Below are positions 17,626-49,364 of a stretch of 49,578 nucleotides of DNA, in pieces; the stretch's first letter is position 1, and each line of letters opens with the position of its first letter. The notes under the pieces are model-generated. The model was given only the letters and a program-made list of their open reading frames with translations. It did no database searches and was not told where the DNA came from. The stretch comes from an uncultured Alphaproteobacteria bacterium (GTDB lineage: Bacteria; Pseudomonadota; Alphaproteobacteria; Bin95). The stretch lies in contig CALKDI010000019.1 in NCBI GenBank assembly GCA_938084065.1, positions 1-49,578 on the forward strand, in the 5' to 3' direction. Position numbers and translations under genes: made by a program.

Positions 17626-19200
17626 TCATCGCTGATGCCGGTTTCTCCCAGCTACATGACGGGCAGTTGCCGAACCTGCTGTTGATTTTGGACTCGCCCA
17701 ATCAGCAGCGAGCCGTGGCATCCGTCCCGCTTCGGCGAGGCTGGCATGACCGGTCTCAGCAATAACGATATGATCCACCACCCGGATGCCTACAGAATGG
17801 CAAGCCTGATCTACCTGGAGCGTCATCGCCACGTCGGCTTGTGATGGCTCCGGGTCGCCCGTCGGGTGATTGTGAACCAGCACGATGTATTGAGCGCCTA
17901 ACCGCAACCCCCGGCTCGCGATTTCTCGTGGTTGTACCGGAGCGGTGTTCACCGTGCCGCGACTGAGAACCTCATCCCATAGCAGGCGATGGTCTGCTGC
18001 CAGGAATAGCGCATGCAGGTGTTCCACCTCTCCATAAGCAAGCGCAGCCCGGCAATAGCGCACGAGGGCGGGCATATCCTCCAGTGGTGGTGCAGCGAGT
18101 ATTTGCGCCCGCAGCAGGCGTTGTGCGGCCTCACCGATGACGGCCAGTTGGACTGCCGCGCTTTCGATATTGTCTGGTCGGATTGCAGCGTCTCGGGTTT
18201 GCAACACATAGAGCAGTTCATCGATTGGTGTTGATAACAGCCGACCCAGATTGCCGAAGCGCGAAATCAGATCGGCGGCGAGTTGGGCGCGAGTGTTCTC
18301 TGAAGCGGCTCTGCGCAGCAGCAGCGACAGCAACTCAGCGTCTGGTAGTTGACCAACCTTACCAGCCGCTACCCGCTCTTGCAGTGCGGCGAGGCTACCC
18401 TCTGGTTCTGCATACCAGCCATTGAACCCAGGGTCGGGAGCAGCGACACGCTCAGCCTCGTAGGCTGGTGCGACCTCCAGGACGCCCATGCTGCGTAGGC
18501 TCATATAGTTGTCAGCTGCGATGATGATGTAGTCATGCATAAGCACCGACACTGGCGCGCCGGCGTCACGGATGCTGCGGGCGAGGGCGTGGTCAGCCTG
18601 CGTATCCGTTAACTGGCCATCAGGACTAAGCCGGACCACGATCAAGCCGGAGGCGCCATGCCGTAAAGCGGTGGTAATGCCTGTGTGGGTGATCGTGGTG
18701 ATATCCTGCGTGTCGGCGAACAATACCGGATCCGTCAAAAGGCGATGGCGGTAGTCCAATAACAGCAAGGCTACCGCGGGTTGATCAAAGCCGGTGAATT
18801 GCTGCCGGCAATAGGCGCCAACTGCGTTCCAACTGCCGAGGAGTGGTGCGTCTGAATGGCTGGTTTGGGCGATGCGCGATGCGGCCTCGCGGACCGCTTC
18901 CATGTGGACAGCCATACCGCCACCAAAGCCAGATACGAGCTTGCTTGCATATATCGACAGCGGGTCGCGCATCACTGCGGCCACGCCAGCGCCGAGGAGA
19001 GGGCGTGCCGAGTTGGTCTTCTGGGGCGGGCAGGTAGCGGCAATTAGGGCATGGGCCAGGGCTTTGGTATCGCCCCTTGGCTGGACGTGACCCAGCAGCA
19101 TCTCAATGATTTCATGATCCAAGAAAGCGCGTGCACCCCCCACGAGAAACCGTTGGCGTAACCTTGCGCGATGCCCACTAGCCGAAGCGGGTGCCGTCAT
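17626..19200 (-). CDS. Tandem-duplicated RadC-family protein (degenerate JAB/MPN module plus intact JAMM module)
   Basis: Residues 1-240 form a complete RadC-like unit (GHRARLRQRFLVGG...), but its JAMM position reads VRLSPDGQLTDTQAD. Residues about 270-490 form a second unit with PREI...HNHPTGDPEPSQAD intact. Confidence 0.8.
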   Translation of the reverse strand: MTAPASASGHRARLRQRFLVGGARAFLDHEIIEMLLGHVQPRGDTKALAHALIAATCPPQKTNSARPLLGAGVAAVMRDPLSIYASKLVSGFGGGMAVHMEAVREAASRIAQTSHSDAPLLGSWNAVGAYCRQQFTGFDQPAVALLLLDYRHRLLTDPVLFADTQDITTITHTGITTALRHGASGLIVVRLSPDGQLTDTQADHALARSIRDAGAPVSVLMHDYIIIAADNYMSLRSMGVLEVAPAYEAERVAAPDPGFNGWYAEPEGSLAALQERVAAGKVGQLPDAELLSLLLRRAASENTRAQLAADLISRFGNLGRLLSTPIDELLYVLQTRDAAIRPDNIESAAVQLAVIGEAAQRLLRAQILAAPPLEDMPALVRYCRAALAYGEVEHLHALFLAADHRLLWDEVLSRGTVNTAPVQPREIASRGLRLGAQYIVLVHNHPTGDPEPSQADVAMTLQVDQACHSVGIRVVDHIVIAETGHASLAEAGRMPRLAADWASPKSTAGSATARHVAGRNRHQR

Positions 19201-19331: not shown

Positions 19332-19580
19332 TCACCCACCCGCAATTTTCGGAATTAAATGAACTTCGCTGTCAGGCCCGATGGGATCTATGAGGGTGTC
19401 CTGAAAGATCTCCCCATCAACGGCGACAGCCATACTCTCTTCAATCTGATTACCAAGGCCTGGGAAAAGGGCATCCAGCTCCTTGATCATCCGTCCGATG
19501 GTGAGGGCTTTCACCTCCACCACGCGGATATCACCGCAATAGGTGCGGCAGAGCGTGGCGCCCAGATGGACTGTTGCCAT
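19332..19580 (-). CDS. MoaD/ThiS-family ubiquitin-like beta-grasp protein ending in Gly-Gly
   Basis: 82 aa. The C-terminus PDSEVHLIPKIAGG-stop parallels the MoaD ending (DGDEVAFFPPVTGG). It starts 23 nt after the stop of the Mo subunit, on the same strand. Confidence 0.75.
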   Translation of the reverse strand: MATVHLGATLCRTYCGDIRVVEVKALTIGRMIKELDALFPGLGNQIEESMAVAVDGEIFQDTLIDPIGPDSEVHLIPKIAGG

Positions 19581-19603
19581 TACTCTGCCGCTATCCCTAT
19601 CGG

Positions 19604-21880
19604 CTACTTGCCAGCCGCGTCGAGGGCCGCACGCACTTTTGGCGGCGACATCGGCAGGCTGGTCATGCGCACACCAGTGGCGTCAAAGATCGCGTTAGCG
19701 ATCGCAGCCATAGGCGGCACAATCGGCACCTCGCCAACGCCTTTGGCGCCGAACGGATGCCGTGGGTTCGGCACTTCGACCAGAGCGACGTCGATCTTGG
19801 GCAGATCACTGGCTACCGGTACGCGGTAATCCAGGAACCCGCCATTATCGAGGCGACCGTCTTTGTCGTAGATGTACTCTTCATTCAGCGCCCAGCCGAT
19901 GCCCTGAACGGCACCGCCCTGCACTTGGCCCTCAACATAGGACGGGTGGATGGCCCGACCGACATCTTGAGCAGCAGTGTAGCGCAGAATTTTGACGTGA
20001 CCGGTCTCTTTATCGACCTCCACATCAACGACGTGTACACCCCAGCCAGGGCCTGCGCCCTGAGCATTGACCGTGGCTTTCGCCGCAATCGGGCCACCGG
20101 TCCGGCCAGACTTGACTGCAATATCAGCCAAGCTCAACGGCTCGAACTTGCCGGCGTTGTCGCCCGCCGGATAGGCTGAGCCATCACGCCATTCGACCGC
20201 CTCAACATCAATCTCCCAGAGCTTGGCCGCACGGCCGCGCAACTGCTTGACGATGTCGTCGGAGGCGTCGCAAACGGCGGTGCCGGTTGCGAAGGTCACG
20301 CGGCTGCCGCCTGTGACGAAGGTGAAGCCGACGGATGCTGTGTCGCCGATGATCGGGCGGACCCGCTCAACGTTCACACCCAGAACCTCTGCCGCCATCA
20401 TCGCCATGGAGGCGCGAGAGCCGCCGATGTCTGGGCTGCCGGAGACGAGCGCGATCGTGCCGTCCTCGTTGACCGCCAGTGAGGCAGAGCTTTCACCGCC
20501 GATGTTGAACCAGAAACCAGCAGCAACACCGCGACCCTGGTTCGGGCCCAGCTTGGCTTGCAGATTCGGATGGTTCTTGGCAGCTTCCAGGGTCTCGACA
20601 TAGCCGATATTCTGGAAGGTCGGGCCGTACAGGGCCTTGGTGCCGTCTTTTGCAGCGTTTTTCAGGCGCAGCTCGATCGGGTCCATGCCAATGGCACGGG
20701 ACAACTCGTCCACCGCACTTTCGGTCGCGTAGGTCGAGATTGGAGCACCTGGGGCGCGGTAAGCCGCAACCTTCGGACGGTTCGACACGACGTCGAAACC
20801 AACCGCACTGGCGTTCTCAATATCGTACATCGCCCAGCAGGTCATTAGGGCGGGGCCGATGGGAGAGCCCGGGTATGCGCCGGCCTGCAGGATGACCTCA
20901 GCGTGGGCAGCAGTAATAGTGCCGTCCATCTTGGCGCCGACTTTGACGTTGATCGTGCCGCCAGAGGTTGGGCCAGAGCCACGGAAAACCTCTTCACGGG
21001 TCATGACCATGCGCACCGGACGACCGGCCTTGCGCGACAGCGCCAGTGCCAGCGGCTCCAGATACACGAGGGTCTTGCCGCCGAAGCCGCCGCCGATTTC
21101 AGCAGGCGTCACGCGGATTTCGGAAATGTCGATGCCCAACAGCTTGGCGCAATAAGCGCGCACCATGAAATGCCCCTGACTGGAGCAGATCACCTGGCAT
21201 TGGCCATCTGGGTTGAACGCAGCGACGCATGCGTGCGGCTCAATATAAGCCTGATGCACCGGCGCAGTGGTGTAGGTGCGTTCGACGATCTTGTCTGCAG
21301 CGGCAAAGCCGGCTTCGAGGTCGCCTTTGGCGAACTCCATCCGCTTCACAACGTTCGACGGGGTCGTCGGTTTCGGGTCTACACCGCTGGTGAAGATGTC
21401 GTCATGCAGGACTGGCGCGCCCGGCTGCATGGCTTCCATCTCGTTGATGACGTGCGGCAGCACCTCGTACTCAACCTTGATCGCTTCGGCGGCTGCGCGG
21501 GCGATGCTGGTGGAGGTGGCGGCAACCGCGGCAACTACATGGCCATCATACAGGACTTTGTCCCGCGCCATCAGGTTGCAGGACAGGTCACGGAAGTTCA
21601 TCGGGCCTTCGCCGACGAAGGCTTCCTCGGAGGTGATGTTGGGGAGATCGGCTGCGGTCACGACCGCGCGCACACCCTTCATCGCCTCAGCGGCGGATGT
21701 ATCGATCTTTATGATCCGGGCGTGCGCGTGCGGCGAGCGCACGGTTGACCCGAAGATCATGCCCGGCATGACGGCATCGCCGCCAAACTGAGCACGGCCC
21801 ATCACTTTGTCGACGCCATCCGGACGAACCGGACGGGTGCCGACAACCTTCAAGGCGTCTTTTAGAGAGATATCATTCAT
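19604..21880 (-). CDS. Xanthine dehydrogenase-family molybdopterin-binding large subunit
   Basis: 758 aa, with EIGGGFGGK and AAYRAPGAP motifs of aldehyde oxidase/XDH-type hydroxylases. It lacks the CODH VAYRCSFR loop. Confidence 0.88.
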   Translation of the reverse strand: MNDISLKDALKVVGTRPVRPDGVDKVMGRAQFGGDAVMPGMIFGSTVRSPHAHARIIKIDTSAAEAMKGVRAVVTAADLPNITSEEAFVGEGPMNFRDLSCNLMARDKVLYDGHVVAAVAATSTSIARAAAEAIKVEYEVLPHVINEMEAMQPGAPVLHDDIFTSGVDPKPTTPSNVVKRMEFAKGDLEAGFAAADKIVERTYTTAPVHQAYIEPHACVAAFNPDGQCQVICSSQGHFMVRAYCAKLLGIDISEIRVTPAEIGGGFGGKTLVYLEPLALALSRKAGRPVRMVMTREEVFRGSGPTSGGTINVKVGAKMDGTITAAHAEVILQAGAYPGSPIGPALMTCWAMYDIENASAVGFDVVSNRPKVAAYRAPGAPISTYATESAVDELSRAIGMDPIELRLKNAAKDGTKALYGPTFQNIGYVETLEAAKNHPNLQAKLGPNQGRGVAAGFWFNIGGESSASLAVNEDGTIALVSGSPDIGGSRASMAMMAAEVLGVNVERVRPIIGDTASVGFTFVTGGSRVTFATGTAVCDASDDIVKQLRGRAAKLWEIDVEAVEWRDGSAYPAGDNAGKFEPLSLADIAVKSGRTGGPIAAKATVNAQGAGPGWGVHVVDVEVDKETGHVKILRYTAAQDVGRAIHPSYVEGQVQGGAVQGIGWALNEEYIYDKDGRLDNGGFLDYRVPVASDLPKIDVALVEVPNPRHPFGAKGVGEVPIVPPMAAIANAIFDATGVRMTSLPMSPPKVRAALDAAGK

Positions 21881-22362
21881 TAAGCAGACTCCCCTCTCAG
21901 CTCAGCGGCTGCAGCGTGGACAGCGTTCATGATCTTGTCATAGCCGGTGCAACGGCAAAGGTTGCCCGCCAGCCAGTAGCGCGCTTCCTCGTCGGTTGGG
22001 CTCGGATTGGCGTCTAGCAGTGCCTTGGTCGCAACGATCAAGCCTGGCGTGCAGAAACCGCACTGCAGTGCGGCGTGCTTCAGGAACTGAGATTGCACGG
22101 GGTGCAGGTTCTCACCGTCGGCAATGCCTTCAATCGTTGTGATGCTTGTGCCTTCAGCTTCAGAGCCGAACATCAGGCAGGAGCATACCAGGCGACCGTC
22201 GACCAGGACGCTACATGCGCCACAGTCGCCAGAGCCGCAGCCCTCTTTCGAGCCGGTCAGGCCCAGATCTTCGCGCAATACGTCCAGAACGGTCTGGTTC
22301 GAATCGCAAAGGAACTCAGTCTCTTCACCATTGACGGTGCAGGTGACGTGCGTTTTTGACAT
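21880..22362 (-). CDS. (2Fe-2S)-binding small subunit of the XDH-family enzyme
   Basis: GCGSGDCGACSV and CGFCTPG / CRCTGY cysteine clusters. Internal ATG at 22362 (MSKTHVTCTVNGEE) is preferred. A 1-nt overlap (ATGA-type junction) links it to the large subunit. Confidence 0.88.
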   Translation of the reverse strand: MSKTHVTCTVNGEETEFLCDSNQTVLDVLREDLGLTGSKEGCGSGDCGACSVLVDGRLVCSCLMFGSEAEGTSITTIEGIADGENLHPVQSQFLKHAALQCGFCTPGLIVATKALLDANPSPTDEEARYWLAGNLCRCTGYDKIMNAVHAAAAELRGESA

Positions 22363-22384
22363 GTGTCTTGTCCCCGCTTCTTGT

Positions 22385-23254
22385 TTAGCGCGCTGCTGCG
22401 CGTTCAAAGGCGATAGCCGCGACTCGACGGGCGAGTACACCGGCAACTTTGGTGCGGAACTCAATGGTACCGCGCTTGTCGTCGATTGGCTTGCACGCGG
22501 CCTGTGCGGCTGCATCCAGTTTGGCCAGTGTCGCGTCGTCCAGCTTGTTGCCAATCAGGATCTTGGCGGCATCGTCCAACACCAGGATGGTCGGGGCTAC
22601 GGCGCCCAAGCACACCTTAGCCGCGGTGCAGGTGCCGCTGGCATCGAGCGTGACAGTGATACCGCAACCGACAACAGCGATGTCCATTTCCGTGCGCGGA
22701 ATAAAGCGCAGGTAGGCATCGGAGGTCTTGCCGGAGGCCTTCGGAATGATGAACTCATAGACGAACTCATCCGCCGCCAGGCTGGTACGGCCCGGAGACA
22801 CTGGCACGTCTTCCACTGGAACAGTGCGTTTGCCGTTCTTGCCGACAATCACTGCCAGCGCGCCAGCAGCGACCAAACCTGGAACACTATCACCAGCCGG
22901 CGATGCGTTGCAGAGGTTGCCAGCAAACGAGGCGCGGCCCTGAACCTGGGTCGAGCCGATCAGCTGAACCGCCTCGGTGACACCCGGCCATGCGGCGCAC
23001 AGGCCGGCATGTTCGCCGATCTCCGCACCCGGCGTCGCGGCACCAATGTGCCAGCCGTCGGCTTCTTCACGGATTCCGATGGTACCGGCGATCTTTTTGA
23101 TATCGACGATCACTTCCGGGCGAAGACGGCCGGAACGCATCTGGATGATAAGGTCTGTGCCGCCGGATAACACCCGAGCAGCGCCGGACGCATTGGCAAG
23201 CAGCCCTACGGCTTCGTCCACCGTAGTAGGGGCAGCATAAGTGGGCGAGTACAT
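22385..23254 (-). CDS. FAD-binding (CoxM-like) medium subunit of the XDH-family enzyme
   Basis: VLSGGTDLIIQM FAD-binding PCMH motif. ATG at 23254 is preceded by GGGAG. 289 aa. Confidence 0.85.
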   Translation of the reverse strand: MYSPTYAAPTTVDEAVGLLANASGAARVLSGGTDLIIQMRSGRLRPEVIVDIKKIAGTIGIREEADGWHIGAATPGAEIGEHAGLCAAWPGVTEAVQLIGSTQVQGRASFAGNLCNASPAGDSVPGLVAAGALAVIVGKNGKRTVPVEDVPVSPGRTSLAADEFVYEFIIPKASGKTSDAYLRFIPRTEMDIAVVGCGITVTLDASGTCTAAKVCLGAVAPTILVLDDAAKILIGNKLDDATLAKLDAAAQAACKPIDDKRGTIEFRTKVAGVLARRVAAIAFERAAAR

Positions 23255-23341
23255 CGTCACTCCCTGGCTTTGGATAAGGCTATGGGTGGGCCGCATAACT
23301 GCGGGTTCACCCTTCGGAACTTCTACGTTAGACTTTCGCCC

Positions 23342-24145
23342 ATGACGAACAAAACTGCAAGCCCCGCTCACGAGCAGGTGGGTCACCGTTTCGCGCCATG
23401 GAAGACCAGCGTCACCGCTGCGCGTCAACATGGATACCATGATCCCGCCGGAATTGATAGCAAACGCTTCGGCGATTGGGTCGATGTTTCGCTGCTGGGC
23501 AATGACTGTTTGAAGGGCGCCCGCTCGCCAGATGACCTTGGGAACCCGCGGCTGCACTATGGCGTGCGAGTTCGCCAGACCATGCCGTTAGCGCTGGGTA
23601 CAGGGCTGGTTGTGCAGGCTGTGGTAACAGCAGTGGAGCCAGTCCGGCGAGGCCGGTTGATCCGGATCACCTTCGCGTTTCTGGCGGAATCTGGTCAGAT
23701 TCCGGTGGAGATCGAGCATCAAAGTTTGATCCTAGATCCCGATCCGATTGGCACAGATCCCGCCCCGGCGGTCGATCGCAGTTGGTCCAAGGCTGAGGCG
23801 ATTCGGGATGTGCCAATGTCACTGGCGTCGGTCAGCGGCTACAGCCATGAATTCCCGTATCTGGAAGGCCATCACAACCAGGCCGCAGCCGAGGCCATCG
23901 GCATGCGCGCGCCAATTGCGCAGGGCCTGCACGGCTTCACCTTGCTGATGAGCGAGATCGCTGCAGACCGCGGTGCCCCTTCAGCCTGCGACATTCAGGC
24001 CGAGTTCCGCAGGCCGATTTTTTGTGACGAGACCGTGCGGCTGGTTGGCCAGCGGGGAGCGGACGACCAGTGGGATGATCTCGCGGTTCTGAAGGGCGAT
24101 GGAAAGCCAACAACACAGGTACACGTGTTTAGCGCAACATGGTAA
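23342..24145 (+). CDS. MaoC-like (double hotdog) enoyl-CoA hydratase/dehydratase family protein
   Basis: The C-terminal half carries HNQAAAEAIGMRAPIAQGLHGFTLL, resembling the MaoC hydratase motif. The N-terminal half looks like a degenerate hotdog. The start is uncertain (ATG 23342 versus TTG 23270). Confidence 0.6.
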   Translation: MTNKTASPAHEQVGHRFAPWKTSVTAARQHGYHDPAGIDSKRFGDWVDVSLLGNDCLKGARSPDDLGNPRLHYGVRVRQTMPLALGTGLVVQAVVTAVEPVRRGRLIRITFAFLAESGQIPVEIEHQSLILDPDPIGTDPAPAVDRSWSKAEAIRDVPMSLASVSGYSHEFPYLEGHHNQAAAEAIGMRAPIAQGLHGFTLLMSEIAADRGAPSACDIQAEFRRPIFCDETVRLVGQRGADDQWDDLAVLKGDGKPTTQVHVFSATW

Positions 24146-49287: not shown

Positions 49288-49364
49288 CGGAGTGTAGCTC
49301 AGCCTGGTAGAGCACTGTCTTCGGGAGGCAGGGGCCGGAGGTTCGAATCCTCTCACTCCGACCA
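49288..49364 (+). tRNA. tRNA-Pro (anticodon CGG)
   Basis: Cloverleaf read by hand: acceptor CGGAGTG/CACTCCG, D-arm GCTC-AGCCTGGTA-GAGC, anticodon arm CTGTC-TTCGGGA-GGCAG, T-arm GGAGG-TTCGAAT-CCTCT, encoded ACCA end. 77 nt. Confidence 0.9.

What the first reader, a model, noticed from the sequence alone, without database searches (positions are those of the whole stretch)
17626..19200. Tandem-duplicated RadC: a fused inactive-JAB / active-JAB pseudo-heterodimer
Ordinary RadC proteins are roughly 220-250 aa, but this ORF is 524 aa and reads as two complete RadC units in one chain. Unit 1 (aa 1-240) keeps the RadC N-terminus (GHRARLRQRFLVGG.. DHEIIEMLLG) and the JAB-fold spacing. Its metal site is lost, though: the JAMM position reads VRLSPDGQLTDTQAD (nt 18592-18636) and the upstream catalytic Glu is missing. 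Unit 2 (aa ~270-490) has an intact PREI...HNHPTGDPEPSQAD (nt 17833-17874). This MPN-minus plus MPN-plus arrangement mirrors the eukaryotic deubiquitinase pairs Rpn8/Rpn11, CSN6/CSN5 and Abraxas/BRCC36, here covalently fused. I do not know of a described function for this architecture, and RadC itself has no established substrate.
Basis: partly seen in the sequence, partly recalled or inferred. Interest (0 to 1): 0.75.

Follow-up and report, generated by a model that had tools for sequence, protein, structure and literature searches.

The report
Fused double RadC, one half inactive
This gene encodes two copies of the widespread but still mysterious bacterial RadC protein joined in one chain, with only the second copy keeping its metal-binding active site, a rare conserved variant that hints that RadC normally works as a pair.

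Summary
ORF 17626-19200 (-) encodes 524 aa with two RadC units. Unit 1's JAB domain scores 66 bits against Pfam RadC and unit 2's 120 bits. Unit 2 has the full JAMM site (E426, H443, H445, S453, D456). Unit 1 has G174, R190, S192, T200, D203. Modelled alone, unit 1 best matches the RadC crystal structure 2qlc (TM 0.77-0.80). The halves share 31% protein identity and no DNA similarity, and about 20 homologs keep the fusion, so it is not an artefact. Both units are under purifying selection (JAB dN/dS about 0.1-0.25). New here: the units kept complementary motifs. Unit 1 keeps GHRxRLRQRF, RxDTK and the second HhH hairpin. Unit 2 keeps the first hairpin and the catalytic site. The family also adds a basic C-terminal tail. 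It is rare: 4 of 185,579 species genomes, all uncultured Alphaproteobacteria. Four other two-unit RadCs exist; at least two are independent duplications. An adjacent GG-ending ThiS-like gene belongs to the upstream Mo-hydroxylase operon, not to RadC. Best reading: a subfunctionalised, covalently fused RadC dimer with one active site. Domain packing, substrate and any deubiquitinase analogy remain untested. New variant of a known kind; moderate interest.

The parts
17626..19200 (-). Complete ORF, 524 aa plus stop: tandem RadC-RadC protein
   Evidence: conserved as a full-length fusion in about 20 homolog clusters
18916..19200 (-). Unit 1 N-terminal helical region (aa 1-95). It keeps the canonical RadC motifs GHRxRLRQRF (aa 9-18), R42-x-D44-T45-K46 and the second HhH hairpin G91-x-G93. 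The first hairpin (FGxL) is replaced by a 16-18 aa insert with invariant R66, P67, G70.
   Evidence: alignment with single RadCs; invariant columns
18478..18915 (-). Unit 1 RadC-type JAB domain without a metal site (aa 96-241), a pseudo-enzyme domain
   Evidence: PF04002 66 bits; AF2 model pLDDT 78 with 2qlc as top hit, TM 0.77-0.80; dN/dS 0.11-0.23
18592..18636 (-). Degenerate JAMM segment of unit 1 (aa 189-203, VRLSPDGQLTDTQAD). R190 (invariant) replaces His1, S192 (variable) replaces His2, T200 replaces Ser, and D203 is retained (invariant).
18397..18477 (-). Inter-unit linker (aa 242-268), predicted disordered and variable in length and sequence
   Evidence: pLDDT about 31-45; alignment gaps; dN/dS variable, up to 0.63
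18157..18396 (-). Unit 2 N-terminal helical region (aa 269-348). It keeps the first HhH hairpin RFGNLGR (aa 314-320). It has lost GHRxRLR, RxDTK and the G-x-G hairpin.
   Evidence: PF20582 UPF0758_N 29.6 bits
17719..18156 (-). Unit 2 RadC JAB domain with intact JAMM site (aa 349-494): E426 (nt 17923-17925), H443/H445/S453/D456 (within nt 17833-17874), all invariant in the family
   Evidence: PF04002 120 bits; 2qlc phmmer E 3.5e-16; Foldseek TM 0.84; invariant columns
17629..17718 (-). Arg/Lys-rich disordered C-terminal tail (aa 495-524), specific to this family
   Evidence: 6-11 K/R in 17-37 residues in all 18 members examined; single RadCs end about 19 residues after the DH motif against about 45 here; pLDDT about 30

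Best explanation
The gene encodes a covalently fused, subfunctionalised RadC dimer. An ancestral RadC gene duplicated in tandem and fused. The second unit kept the Zn-binding JAMM hydrolase centre and the first HhH hairpin. The first unit kept the RadC-type JAB fold as a non-catalytic partner, with an invariant Arg at the first-His position. It also kept the other conserved RadC N-terminal motifs (GHRxRLRQRF, RxDTK, second HhH hairpin). The chain therefore holds exactly one copy of each conserved RadC element, plus a new basic tail. Shown: the architecture, the fold of both units, the loss of the metal site in unit 1, the complementary motif retention, purifying selection on both units, rarity, and the existence of similar fusions elsewhere. 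Inferred: (1) the two JAB domains pack intramolecularly as a canonical RadC homodimer would; (2) there is one active site per molecule, in unit 2, binding Zn; (3) the unit-1 N-terminal motifs and the basic tail bind the substrate, probably nucleic acid or a DNA-associated molecule, following the RadC-family hypothesis of Iyer et al. 2011. The actual substrate is unknown, as it is for all RadC proteins.
For: Two PF04002 domains. Unit 1 alone models as a RadC JAB, and the secondary-structure order is identical in both units. JAMM residues are invariant in unit 2 and lost in unit 1 across 19 family members, with R190 and D203 invariant. dN/dS of the unit-1 JAB is 0.106 and 0.234, against 0.088 and 0.255 for the unit-2 JAB, in the two least saturated pairs. 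N-terminal motif retention is complementary compared with six single RadCs. Unit 2 is 40-52% identical to ordinary alphaproteobacterial RadCs, unit 1 only 24-32%. The basic tail is conserved in character. Other two-unit RadCs with one dead unit exist: P0029 and P0168 are inactive-then-active, P0083 is active-then-inactive. The order reversal in P0083 and the 57% unit-to-unit identity in P0130 show these at least are separate duplications, which is what is expected if RadC works as a homo-oligomer that tolerates loss of one site. P0168 sits in the canonical map-radC housekeeping slot. The context is core chromosome: uniform GC, metabolic neighbours, no PADLOC hit.
Against: No direct evidence that the two JAB domains contact each other: the tools give no coordinates or PAE, the full-length pTM is only 0.53, and the roughly 25-residue linker is predicted disordered. 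The oligomeric state of canonical RadC was not established here. Unit 1 has its own invariant residues (R190, D149, H152, R153, H222, D223), which could mean a new function rather than a scaffold role. It is unknown whether these genomes also keep a normal single radC. Only 19 sequences were available, so no co-evolution analysis was possible.
Confidence: 0.58

Rival explanations
1. Neo-functionalised first unit. Unit 1 is not a dimer partner but an independent module, joined to an ordinary RadC by a flexible linker, that has gained a new metal-independent role such as binding a ligand, nucleotide, nucleic acid or partner protein.
For: Unit 1 has its own invariant residues not explained by the fold alone (R190, D203, H222, D223, D149, H152, R153). 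The linker is long, variable and predicted disordered. Iyer et al. 2011 (PMC3239186) proposed that inactive RadC JAB domains may act as DNA-binding domains.
Against: The complementary loss of N-terminal motifs between the two units is more simply explained by two halves sharing one job. Two-unit RadCs with one dead unit occur in both orders. No new domain or insertion that would suggest a new activity was detected.
Confidence: 0.22
2. Ubiquitin-like processing system. The live JAB domain acts as an isopeptidase or C-terminal peptidase on the GG-ending ThiS/MoaD-like protein encoded 131 nt upstream, as in prokaryotic JAB-Ubl systems (CysO/Mec+, archaeal SAMP/JAMM) and, by analogy, Rpn8/Rpn11.
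For: An 82-aa ThiS-family protein ending in GG lies directly upstream on the same strand. The adjacency is kept in the close relatives L001, L003, L004, L008 and L091.
Against: The ThiS-like gene is the last gene of a FAD / 2Fe-2S / Mo-hydroxylase / ThiS-like operon, starting about 24 nt after the large subunit. That operon occurs without an adjacent RadC in L092, in Dongia soli (L030, about 4 kb from an ordinary single radC), and in L090, on a 567,657-bp contig that is probably the one carrying a group-B double RadC more than 100 kb away. All six group-B loci lack it. No E1-like gene is present. RadC-type JABs are reported to lack the Ub-tail groove (PMC5512222).
Confidence: 0.03
3. Mobile-element, anti-restriction or defence-associated RadC-like protein, of the kind carried by ICEs and prophages.
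For: RadC-like genes are common on conjugative elements and prophages (PMC5512222). The protein matches a PHROG 'DNA repair protein' family. In L008 an integrase and a DUF499/methyltransferase island lie just downstream.
Against: The window neighbourhood is metabolic (GGT, amino-acid permease, Mo-hydroxylase operon, CoA-transferase), GC content is uniform, and there is no integrase nearby. There is no PADLOC match. Unit 2 is closest to chromosomal alphaproteobacterial RadCs. The upstream context is stable within each subgroup.
Confidence: 0.03
4. Artefact: an assembly duplication, or a false fusion of two adjacent radC genes through a frameshift or sequencing error.
For: None beyond the unusual length.
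Against: The halves share 31% protein identity and no DNA similarity. The fusion and the junction motif SLRSMGVLEV are conserved in about 20 clusters from independent samples and sources. Both halves are under purifying selection.
Confidence: 0.01

Closest known systems
Canonical single-unit RadC / YicR (UPF0758; PF04002 + PF20582; TIGR00608; crystal structure 2QLC of the Chlorobium tepidum JAB domain)
   Same: Unit 2 is an ordinary RadC in every measurable way. It scores 253 bits against the NCBIfam equivalog, has the full JAMM site, is 40-52% identical to alphaproteobacterial RadCs, and matches 2qlc at TM 0.84. Unit 1 has the same fold and the canonical N-terminal GHRxRLR and RxDTK motifs.
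   Different: It has two units in one 524-aa chain instead of one unit of about 220-250 aa. Unit 1 lacks the metal site. The N-terminal motifs are split between the units. There is an added basic C-terminal tail. It is not in the sfsA-map-radC slot that holds radC in 44 of the single-RadC alphaproteobacterial loci examined.
Eukaryotic MPN-/MPN+ pairs (Rpn8/Rpn11, CSN6/CSN5, Abraxas or KIAA0157/BRCC36)
   Same: One catalytically dead and one live domain of the JAB/MPN superfamily acting, or presumed to act, together.
   Different: Those are separate polypeptides of the classical MPN clade, act on ubiquitin or Nedd8 and sit inside large complexes. Here both domains are of the RadC clade, which is reported to lack the Ub-tail groove, they are covalently linked, there is no Ubl linkage, and heterodimer-like packing is untested. 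Structural similarity is only at superfamily level (Foldseek E 0.04-0.9).
Inactive RadC-type JAB domains fused to DinG/Rad3-like helicases in fusobacteria (Iyer et al. 2011, PMC3239186)
   Same: RadC-clade JAB domains that have lost their zinc ligands yet are retained. They were proposed to act as binding domains.
   Different: Those are fused to a helicase, not to a second, active RadC unit.
Other two-unit RadC proteins found here: P0168 (476 aa, in a map-radC slot), P0029 (520 aa), P0083 (558 aa), P0130 (514 aa, Christensenellaceae MAG)
   Same: They have two PF04002 units in one chain. P0029 and P0168 are also inactive-then-active, and P0168 also has Arg at the first-His position and keeps Thr...Asp.
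   Different: Their first units are only 17-23% identical to the window's unit 1 and do not group with it. P0168's unit 2 lacks the catalytic Glu (LRA in place of PRE). P0083 has the reverse order. P0130 is a recent duplication (57% identity between units) with HNH kept in both units and the Glu replaced by Arg in both. P0083 and P0130 are separate events; P0029 and P0168 may be separate or too diverged to tell.
Prokaryotic JAB plus ThiS/MoaD-like sulfur-carrier systems (e.g. M. tuberculosis CysO/Mec+)
   Same: A JAB-superfamily metalloenzyme gene lies next to a GG-ending ThiS-family gene in the window.
   Different: The adjacency is clade-level synteny. The ThiS-like gene belongs to the Mo-hydroxylase operon, there is no E1-like gene, and the JAB is of the RadC clade.

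Membership tests
RadC / UPF0758 family | RadC-like JAB domain (PF04002) above the gathering score | tested here: met
   Unit 1 scores 66.3 bits and unit 2 120.4 bits against a cutoff of 22.1.
RadC / UPF0758 family | Match to the curated full-length RadC models (NF000642 cutoff 180; TIGR00608 cutoff 133.85) | tested here: met
   253.3 and 243 bits; best stretch aa 275-493.
RadC / UPF0758 family | Intact JAMM metal site E...HxH...S..D | tested here: met
   Unit 2: E426, H443, H445, S453 and D456 are all invariant in 19 members. Unit 1 does not meet it (G174, R190, S192, T200; only D203 kept).
RadC / UPF0758 family | N-terminal UPF0758_N / helix-hairpin-helix region | tested here: inconclusive
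   PF20582 scores 29.6 bits (cutoff 27.1) for unit 2 in the full-length scan but 23.9 in the half scan, and gives no hit for unit 1. The motif-level alignment shows each unit keeps part of the region.
RadC / UPF0758 family | Fold match to the solved RadC JAB domain (2QLC) | tested here: met
   Full-length model: TM 0.82-0.86, rmsd 1.8-2.4. Unit 1 alone: TM 0.77-0.80, rmsd 2.3-2.4.
RadC / UPF0758 family | Single-unit architecture of about 220-250 aa | tested here: not met
   524 aa with two units. This is why it is filed as a variant rather than an ordinary member.
MPN-/MPN+ heterodimeric isopeptidase modules (Rpn8/Rpn11 type) | One degenerate and one catalytically intact JAB/MPN domain | tested here: met
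MPN-/MPN+ heterodimeric isopeptidase modules (Rpn8/Rpn11 type) | The two MPN domains pack as a defined heterodimer | not testable with these tools
   Structure prediction returns no coordinates or PAE. Full-length pTM is 0.53 and the linker is disordered.
MPN-/MPN+ heterodimeric isopeptidase modules (Rpn8/Rpn11 type) | Ubiquitin or Ubl substrate and a Ub-tail binding groove | not tested
   Not examined on the model. Iyer et al. 2017 (PMC5512222) state that the RadC clade is unlikely to have the groove.
MPN-/MPN+ heterodimeric isopeptidase modules (Rpn8/Rpn11 type) | Close structural or sequence relationship to classical MPN domains | tested here: not met
   Foldseek hits to Rpn8/Rpn11, CSN5 and BRCC36 chains have E 0.04-0.9 and target TM about 0.2-0.35, against 2qlc at E 1e-6 to 1e-8.
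Prokaryotic JAB-Ubl (ThiS/MoaD) conjugation or sulfur-carrier systems | Conserved operonic linkage of the JAB gene with a Ubl gene (and usually an E1-like gene) | tested here: not met
   The ThiS-like gene is adjacent only in group A. It is absent from all six group-B loci. It occurs with the Mo-hydroxylase operon and without an adjacent RadC in L090, L092 and L030. No E1-like gene is present.
Known anti-phage defence systems (PADLOC) | Match to a defence-system protein model | tested here: not met
   No PADLOC family at E <= 0.01.

The most novel reading that the evidence does not exclude
RadC proteins in general work as obligate dimers in which the N-terminal motif set (GHRxRLR, RxDTK, HhH hairpins) of one protomer cooperates with the JAMM site of the other. 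This family, and the separately arisen two-unit RadCs, would then be natural 'frozen' asymmetric dimers that show which elements are needed once per functional unit. That would give the first mechanistic handle on a near-universal bacterial protein whose function has been unknown for decades.
Probability: 0.3. Interest if true: 0.6.

Novelty: new variant of a known kind. Interest (0 to 1): 0.4.

Why it matters
RadC (UPF0758/YicR) is present across most bacterial lineages and belongs to several competence regulons, yet it had no established substrate or activity as of a 2025 review (PMC11981726). A conserved natural fusion in which one unit has lost catalysis, while the two units keep complementary motif sets, is a natural experiment. 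It suggests RadC acts as a pair with one active site sufficing. It also indicates which N-terminal motifs and which active site need be present only once per working unit. This leads to simple tests: oligomeric state, Zn stoichiometry, and trans-complementation of motif mutants in ordinary RadC. It does not reveal the substrate, and tandem duplication with one dead copy is a common evolutionary pattern, so the value is moderate.

Tried and rejected
(1) Assembly duplication or false fusion: rejected. There is no DNA similarity between the halves, the fusion is conserved in about 20 clusters from independent sources, and both halves are under purifying selection. (2) JAB-Ubl system with the adjacent GG-ending ThiS-like gene: followed up with a homolog search and five context look-ups. 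It was rejected because the ThiS-like gene travels with the Mo-hydroxylase operon, with or without RadC. (3) Defence or mobile-element role: no PADLOC hit, only a generic PHROG RadC hit, and core metabolic context. (4) Stand-alone inactive RadC units encoded next to active ones (an unfused ancestor): none scored above about 173 bits in the exhaustive profile search. All non-family top hits matched the unit-2 part of the profile. Weaker ones cannot be excluded. (5) Shared origin of the window family with P0029, P0168 and P0083: their first units are only 17-23% identical to the window's and do not group together, so this is unresolved for P0029 and P0168. (6) Promoter and terminator scan of the locus: nothing above the shuffled expectation. 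(7) Literature searches for tandem RadC/JAB, RadC+YicR, RadC+JAMM and RadC+pseudoenzyme returned nothing on this architecture. (9) I could not inspect inter-domain packing because no coordinates or PAE are returned.
Full report
OBSERVATION. The window carries an ATG-initiated ORF at 17626..19200 on the minus strand encoding 524 aa. Pfam's RadC-like JAB model (PF04002) matches twice. Scanned separately, the N-terminal half (aa 123-239) scores 66.3 bits (E 3e-18) and the C-terminal half (aa 378-492) 120.4 bits, against a gathering score of 22.1. The curated NCBIfam RadC equivalog scores 253 bits. The two halves align to each other at 31% identity over 144 residues (E 1e-12). In unit 2 the JAMM residues are E426, H443, H445, S453 and D456. 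The aligned positions in unit 1 are G174, R190, S192, T200 and D203. There is no nucleotide similarity between the halves (longest match 14 nt) and no other RadC-like sequence in the window.

IS IT REAL AND CONSERVED? A search of 5.8 billion proteins returned about 20 full-length relatives of 470-530 aa, down to 42% identity. Three shorter gene calls (P0009, P0010, P0019) start at an internal Met. For P0009 and P0019 the DNA was read, and the upstream sequence in L008 and L002 encodes the missing GHRxRLRQRF N-terminus. The window protein's own 90% cluster has 11 members seen on several contigs from different sources. In the 19-sequence alignment all five JAMM residues of unit 2 are invariant. 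In unit 1 the Glu and second-His positions vary freely, but R190 (at the first-His position) and D203 are invariant, as are D149, H152, R153, H222, D223 and the canonical RadC C-terminal motif SLRSMG at the end of unit 1. Nei-Gojobori estimates on the two least saturated pairs give dN/dS of 0.106 and 0.234 for the unit-1 JAB domain, against 0.088 and 0.255 for the unit-2 JAB domain. The linker and tail are more variable. Many other pairs are saturated at synonymous sites and were not used. Unit 1 is therefore a maintained domain and not a decaying relic.

FOLD. The full-length AlphaFold2 model (19-sequence alignment) has mean pLDDT 69.6 and pTM 0.53. Both units show the same order of helices and strands. 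The linker (aa 237-266) and the tail (aa 498-524) are predicted disordered. Its best PDB matches are the chains of the RadC crystal structure 2qlc (target TM 0.82-0.86). Modelled alone, the N-terminal 250 residues give pLDDT 78.2 and pTM 0.67. The best PDB matches are again 2qlc (TM 0.77-0.80, rmsd 2.3-2.4 A, 16-18% identity). Classical MPN proteins (Rpn8, Rpn11, CSN5, BRCC36) appear only at superfamily level (E 0.04-0.9).

(a) Complementary motif retention. Unit 1 keeps GHRxRLRQRF, R-x-D-T-K and the second helix-hairpin-helix hairpin (G91-x-G93, invariant). It has replaced the first hairpin (FGxL) with a 16-18 residue insert. Unit 2 keeps the first hairpin (RFGNLGR) but has lost GHRxRLR, RxDTK and the G-x-G hairpin. 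Together with the JAMM pattern, the chain holds one copy of each conserved RadC element. (b) A basic tail. All 18 members examined end in a 17-37 residue tail with 6-11 Arg/Lys. Single RadCs end about 19 residues after the DH motif, against about 45 here. (c) Divergence. Unit 2 is 40-52% identical to ordinary alphaproteobacterial RadC JAB domains. Unit 1 is only 24-32% identical to them, but 38-58% identical among family members.

DISTRIBUTION. A scan of one genome per species (185,579 species) found the two-unit form in four genomes, all uncultured Alphaproteobacteria MAGs. All other confirmed hits were single RadCs. An exhaustive profile search of 1.84 billion representatives found 46,597 RadC-like proteins (E <= 0.001). 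At 50% clustering this family is one full-length representative (827 bits) plus fragments, after which scores drop to about 228 bits. Among the best 150 representatives, four other proteins have two RadC units. P0029 and P0168 are inactive-then-active. P0083 is active-then-inactive. P0130, from a Christensenellaceae MAG, is a recent duplication with 57% identity between units and HNH kept in both. P0168's unit 2 keeps HNH, Ser and Asp but has Ala at the catalytic Glu position. The first units of these proteins are only 17-23% identical to the window's unit 1 and do not group with it. P0083 and P0130 are clearly separate duplications. For P0029 and P0168 a shared origin with the window family cannot be excluded.

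GENOMIC CONTEXT. The window neighbourhood is metabolic: gamma-glutamyltranspeptidase, an amino-acid permease (convergent), the double RadC, then upstream on the same strand a ThiS-family 82-aa protein ending in GG, a Mo-hydroxylase large subunit, a 2Fe-2S subunit and an FAD subunit. GC content is uniform. The ThiS-like gene was the one lead toward a ubiquitin-like connection, so I followed it. In relatives of at least 60% identity (group A: L001, L003, L004, L008, L091) the ThiS-like gene precedes the double RadC with a gap of about 130-250 nt, while the downstream genes differ. In relatives of 45-50% identity (group B: L002, L005, L006, L007, L012, L013) there is no ThiS-like gene or Mo-hydroxylase. 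Instead an Abhydrolase_3 esterase gene follows immediately. The ThiS-like gene itself always follows the Mo-hydroxylase large subunit by a few to about 25 nt. It does so without an adjacent RadC in L092, where LuxR/LuxI genes follow. It also does so in L090, on a 567,657-bp contig of the same length as, and presumably identical to, the one carrying a group-B double RadC more than 100 kb away. In the cultured Dongia soli it lies about 4 kb from an ordinary single radC. The ThiS-like gene is therefore part of the Mo-hydroxylase operon, and its adjacency to RadC is synteny.

HOUSEKEEPING SLOT. In 44 of the single-RadC alphaproteobacterial loci fetched, methionine aminopeptidase (map) ends just upstream of radC, often with sfsA nearby. 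The distant double RadC P0168 sits in that slot, with map overlapping its start by 4 nt. The window family is not next to map. I could not determine whether its host genomes also keep a map-linked single radC.

MECHANISM (best supported, confidence about 0.58). The protein is a covalently fused, subfunctionalised RadC dimer with a single catalytic centre in unit 2. Unit 1 is a non-catalytic JAB partner that also supplies the N-terminal motifs lost from unit 2, and the basic tail adds general polyanion affinity. The architecture, folds, motif partition, selection and the existence of other such fusions are shown. Intramolecular JAB-JAB packing, Zn stoichiometry, nucleic-acid binding and the substrate are inferred. 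The family-level hypothesis that RadC acts on nucleic acids or DNA-associated substrates comes from Iyer et al. 2011 (PMC3239186), who also noted inactive RadC JAB domains in helicase fusions. A 2025 review still lists RadC's function as unknown (PMC11981726). The main rival (about 0.22) is that unit 1 is an independent, neo-functionalised binding module on a flexible tether.

COMPARISON AND NOVELTY. This is a member of the RadC family by every sequence and fold criterion except the single-unit architecture. It resembles MPN-/MPN+ pairs only in having one dead and one live domain. The defining features of those pairs (heterodimer packing, Ub or Ubl substrate, Ubl gene linkage) were untestable, untested or not met. 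Iyer et al. 2017 state that RadC-type JABs are unlikely to have the Ub-tail groove (PMC5512222). No description of tandem RadC proteins was found. I rate it a new variant of a known kind, of moderate interest. It is a rare, clade-restricted but clearly selected architecture that offers testable hints about how an enigmatic, near-universal protein is organised, but it does not reveal what that protein does.

Noticed in passing
window 19332-23557 (-); also L001, L003, L090, L091, L092, L030: An 82-aa ThiS/MoaD-family protein ending in GG is the conserved last gene of a four-gene operon (FAD subunit, 2Fe-2S subunit, xanthine-dehydrogenase/CO-dehydrogenase-family Mo-hydroxylase large subunit, ThiS-like). 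It starts a few to about 25 nt after the large subunit. A sulfur-carrier-like Ubl tied to a Mo-hydroxylase might act in cofactor sulfuration or maturation; its role is unknown.
   Followed up: partly
L002 9513-10490, L005 9542-10528, L006 9605-10615, L007 9586-10551, L012, L013: In the divergent subgroup (45-50% identity) the double RadC is always followed on the same strand by an Abhydrolase_3/BD-FAE esterase gene, overlapping by 4 nt in L005. A YjbR-family gene follows that in L002, L007, L012 and L013. This may be an operon, and it is not present in the window.
   Followed up: partly
L014-L089 (44 loci), L093 4249-7149: Methionine aminopeptidase (map) lies immediately upstream of radC, often with sfsA nearby, in most single-RadC alphaproteobacterial loci. 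This looks like the canonical housekeeping arrangement. The distant double RadC P0168 occupies this slot; the window family does not.
   Followed up: partly
proteins P0039, P0049, P0063, P0127: Several RadC proteins of 416-512 aa carry an N-terminal ChlI-type (PF13541) domain fused to a complete RadC unit. From memory, this domain is the Lon-protease-like domain also found in ComM/YifB. It is another RadC architecture that may link RadC to recombination or competence machinery.
   Followed up: no
L008 3270-10960: Directly downstream of a group-A double RadC lies a tyrosine integrase, an HTH gene, a DUF499 protein and a large N6/N4 methyltransferase-like protein. This looks like an integrated island, possibly defence-related, inserted at this locus.
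   Followed up: no
L094 1-6810: The distant two-unit RadC P0029/P0293 lies downstream of an SNF2/DEAD helicase gene and two genes without Pfam matches. This context differs from both the window family and P0168.
   Followed up: no
L001 28-7593 and L003 1-7576: Two consecutive Mo-hydroxylase gene sets (2Fe-2S subunit / large subunit / FAD subunit, then FAD subunit / 2Fe-2S subunit / large subunit / ThiS-like) lie upstream of the double RadC in group-A relatives. Only the second set carries the ThiS-like gene.
   Followed up: no
window 49288-49364 (+): tRNA-Pro (CGG) is the only RNA gene detected in the window by ARAGORN and Rfam.
   Followed up: yes
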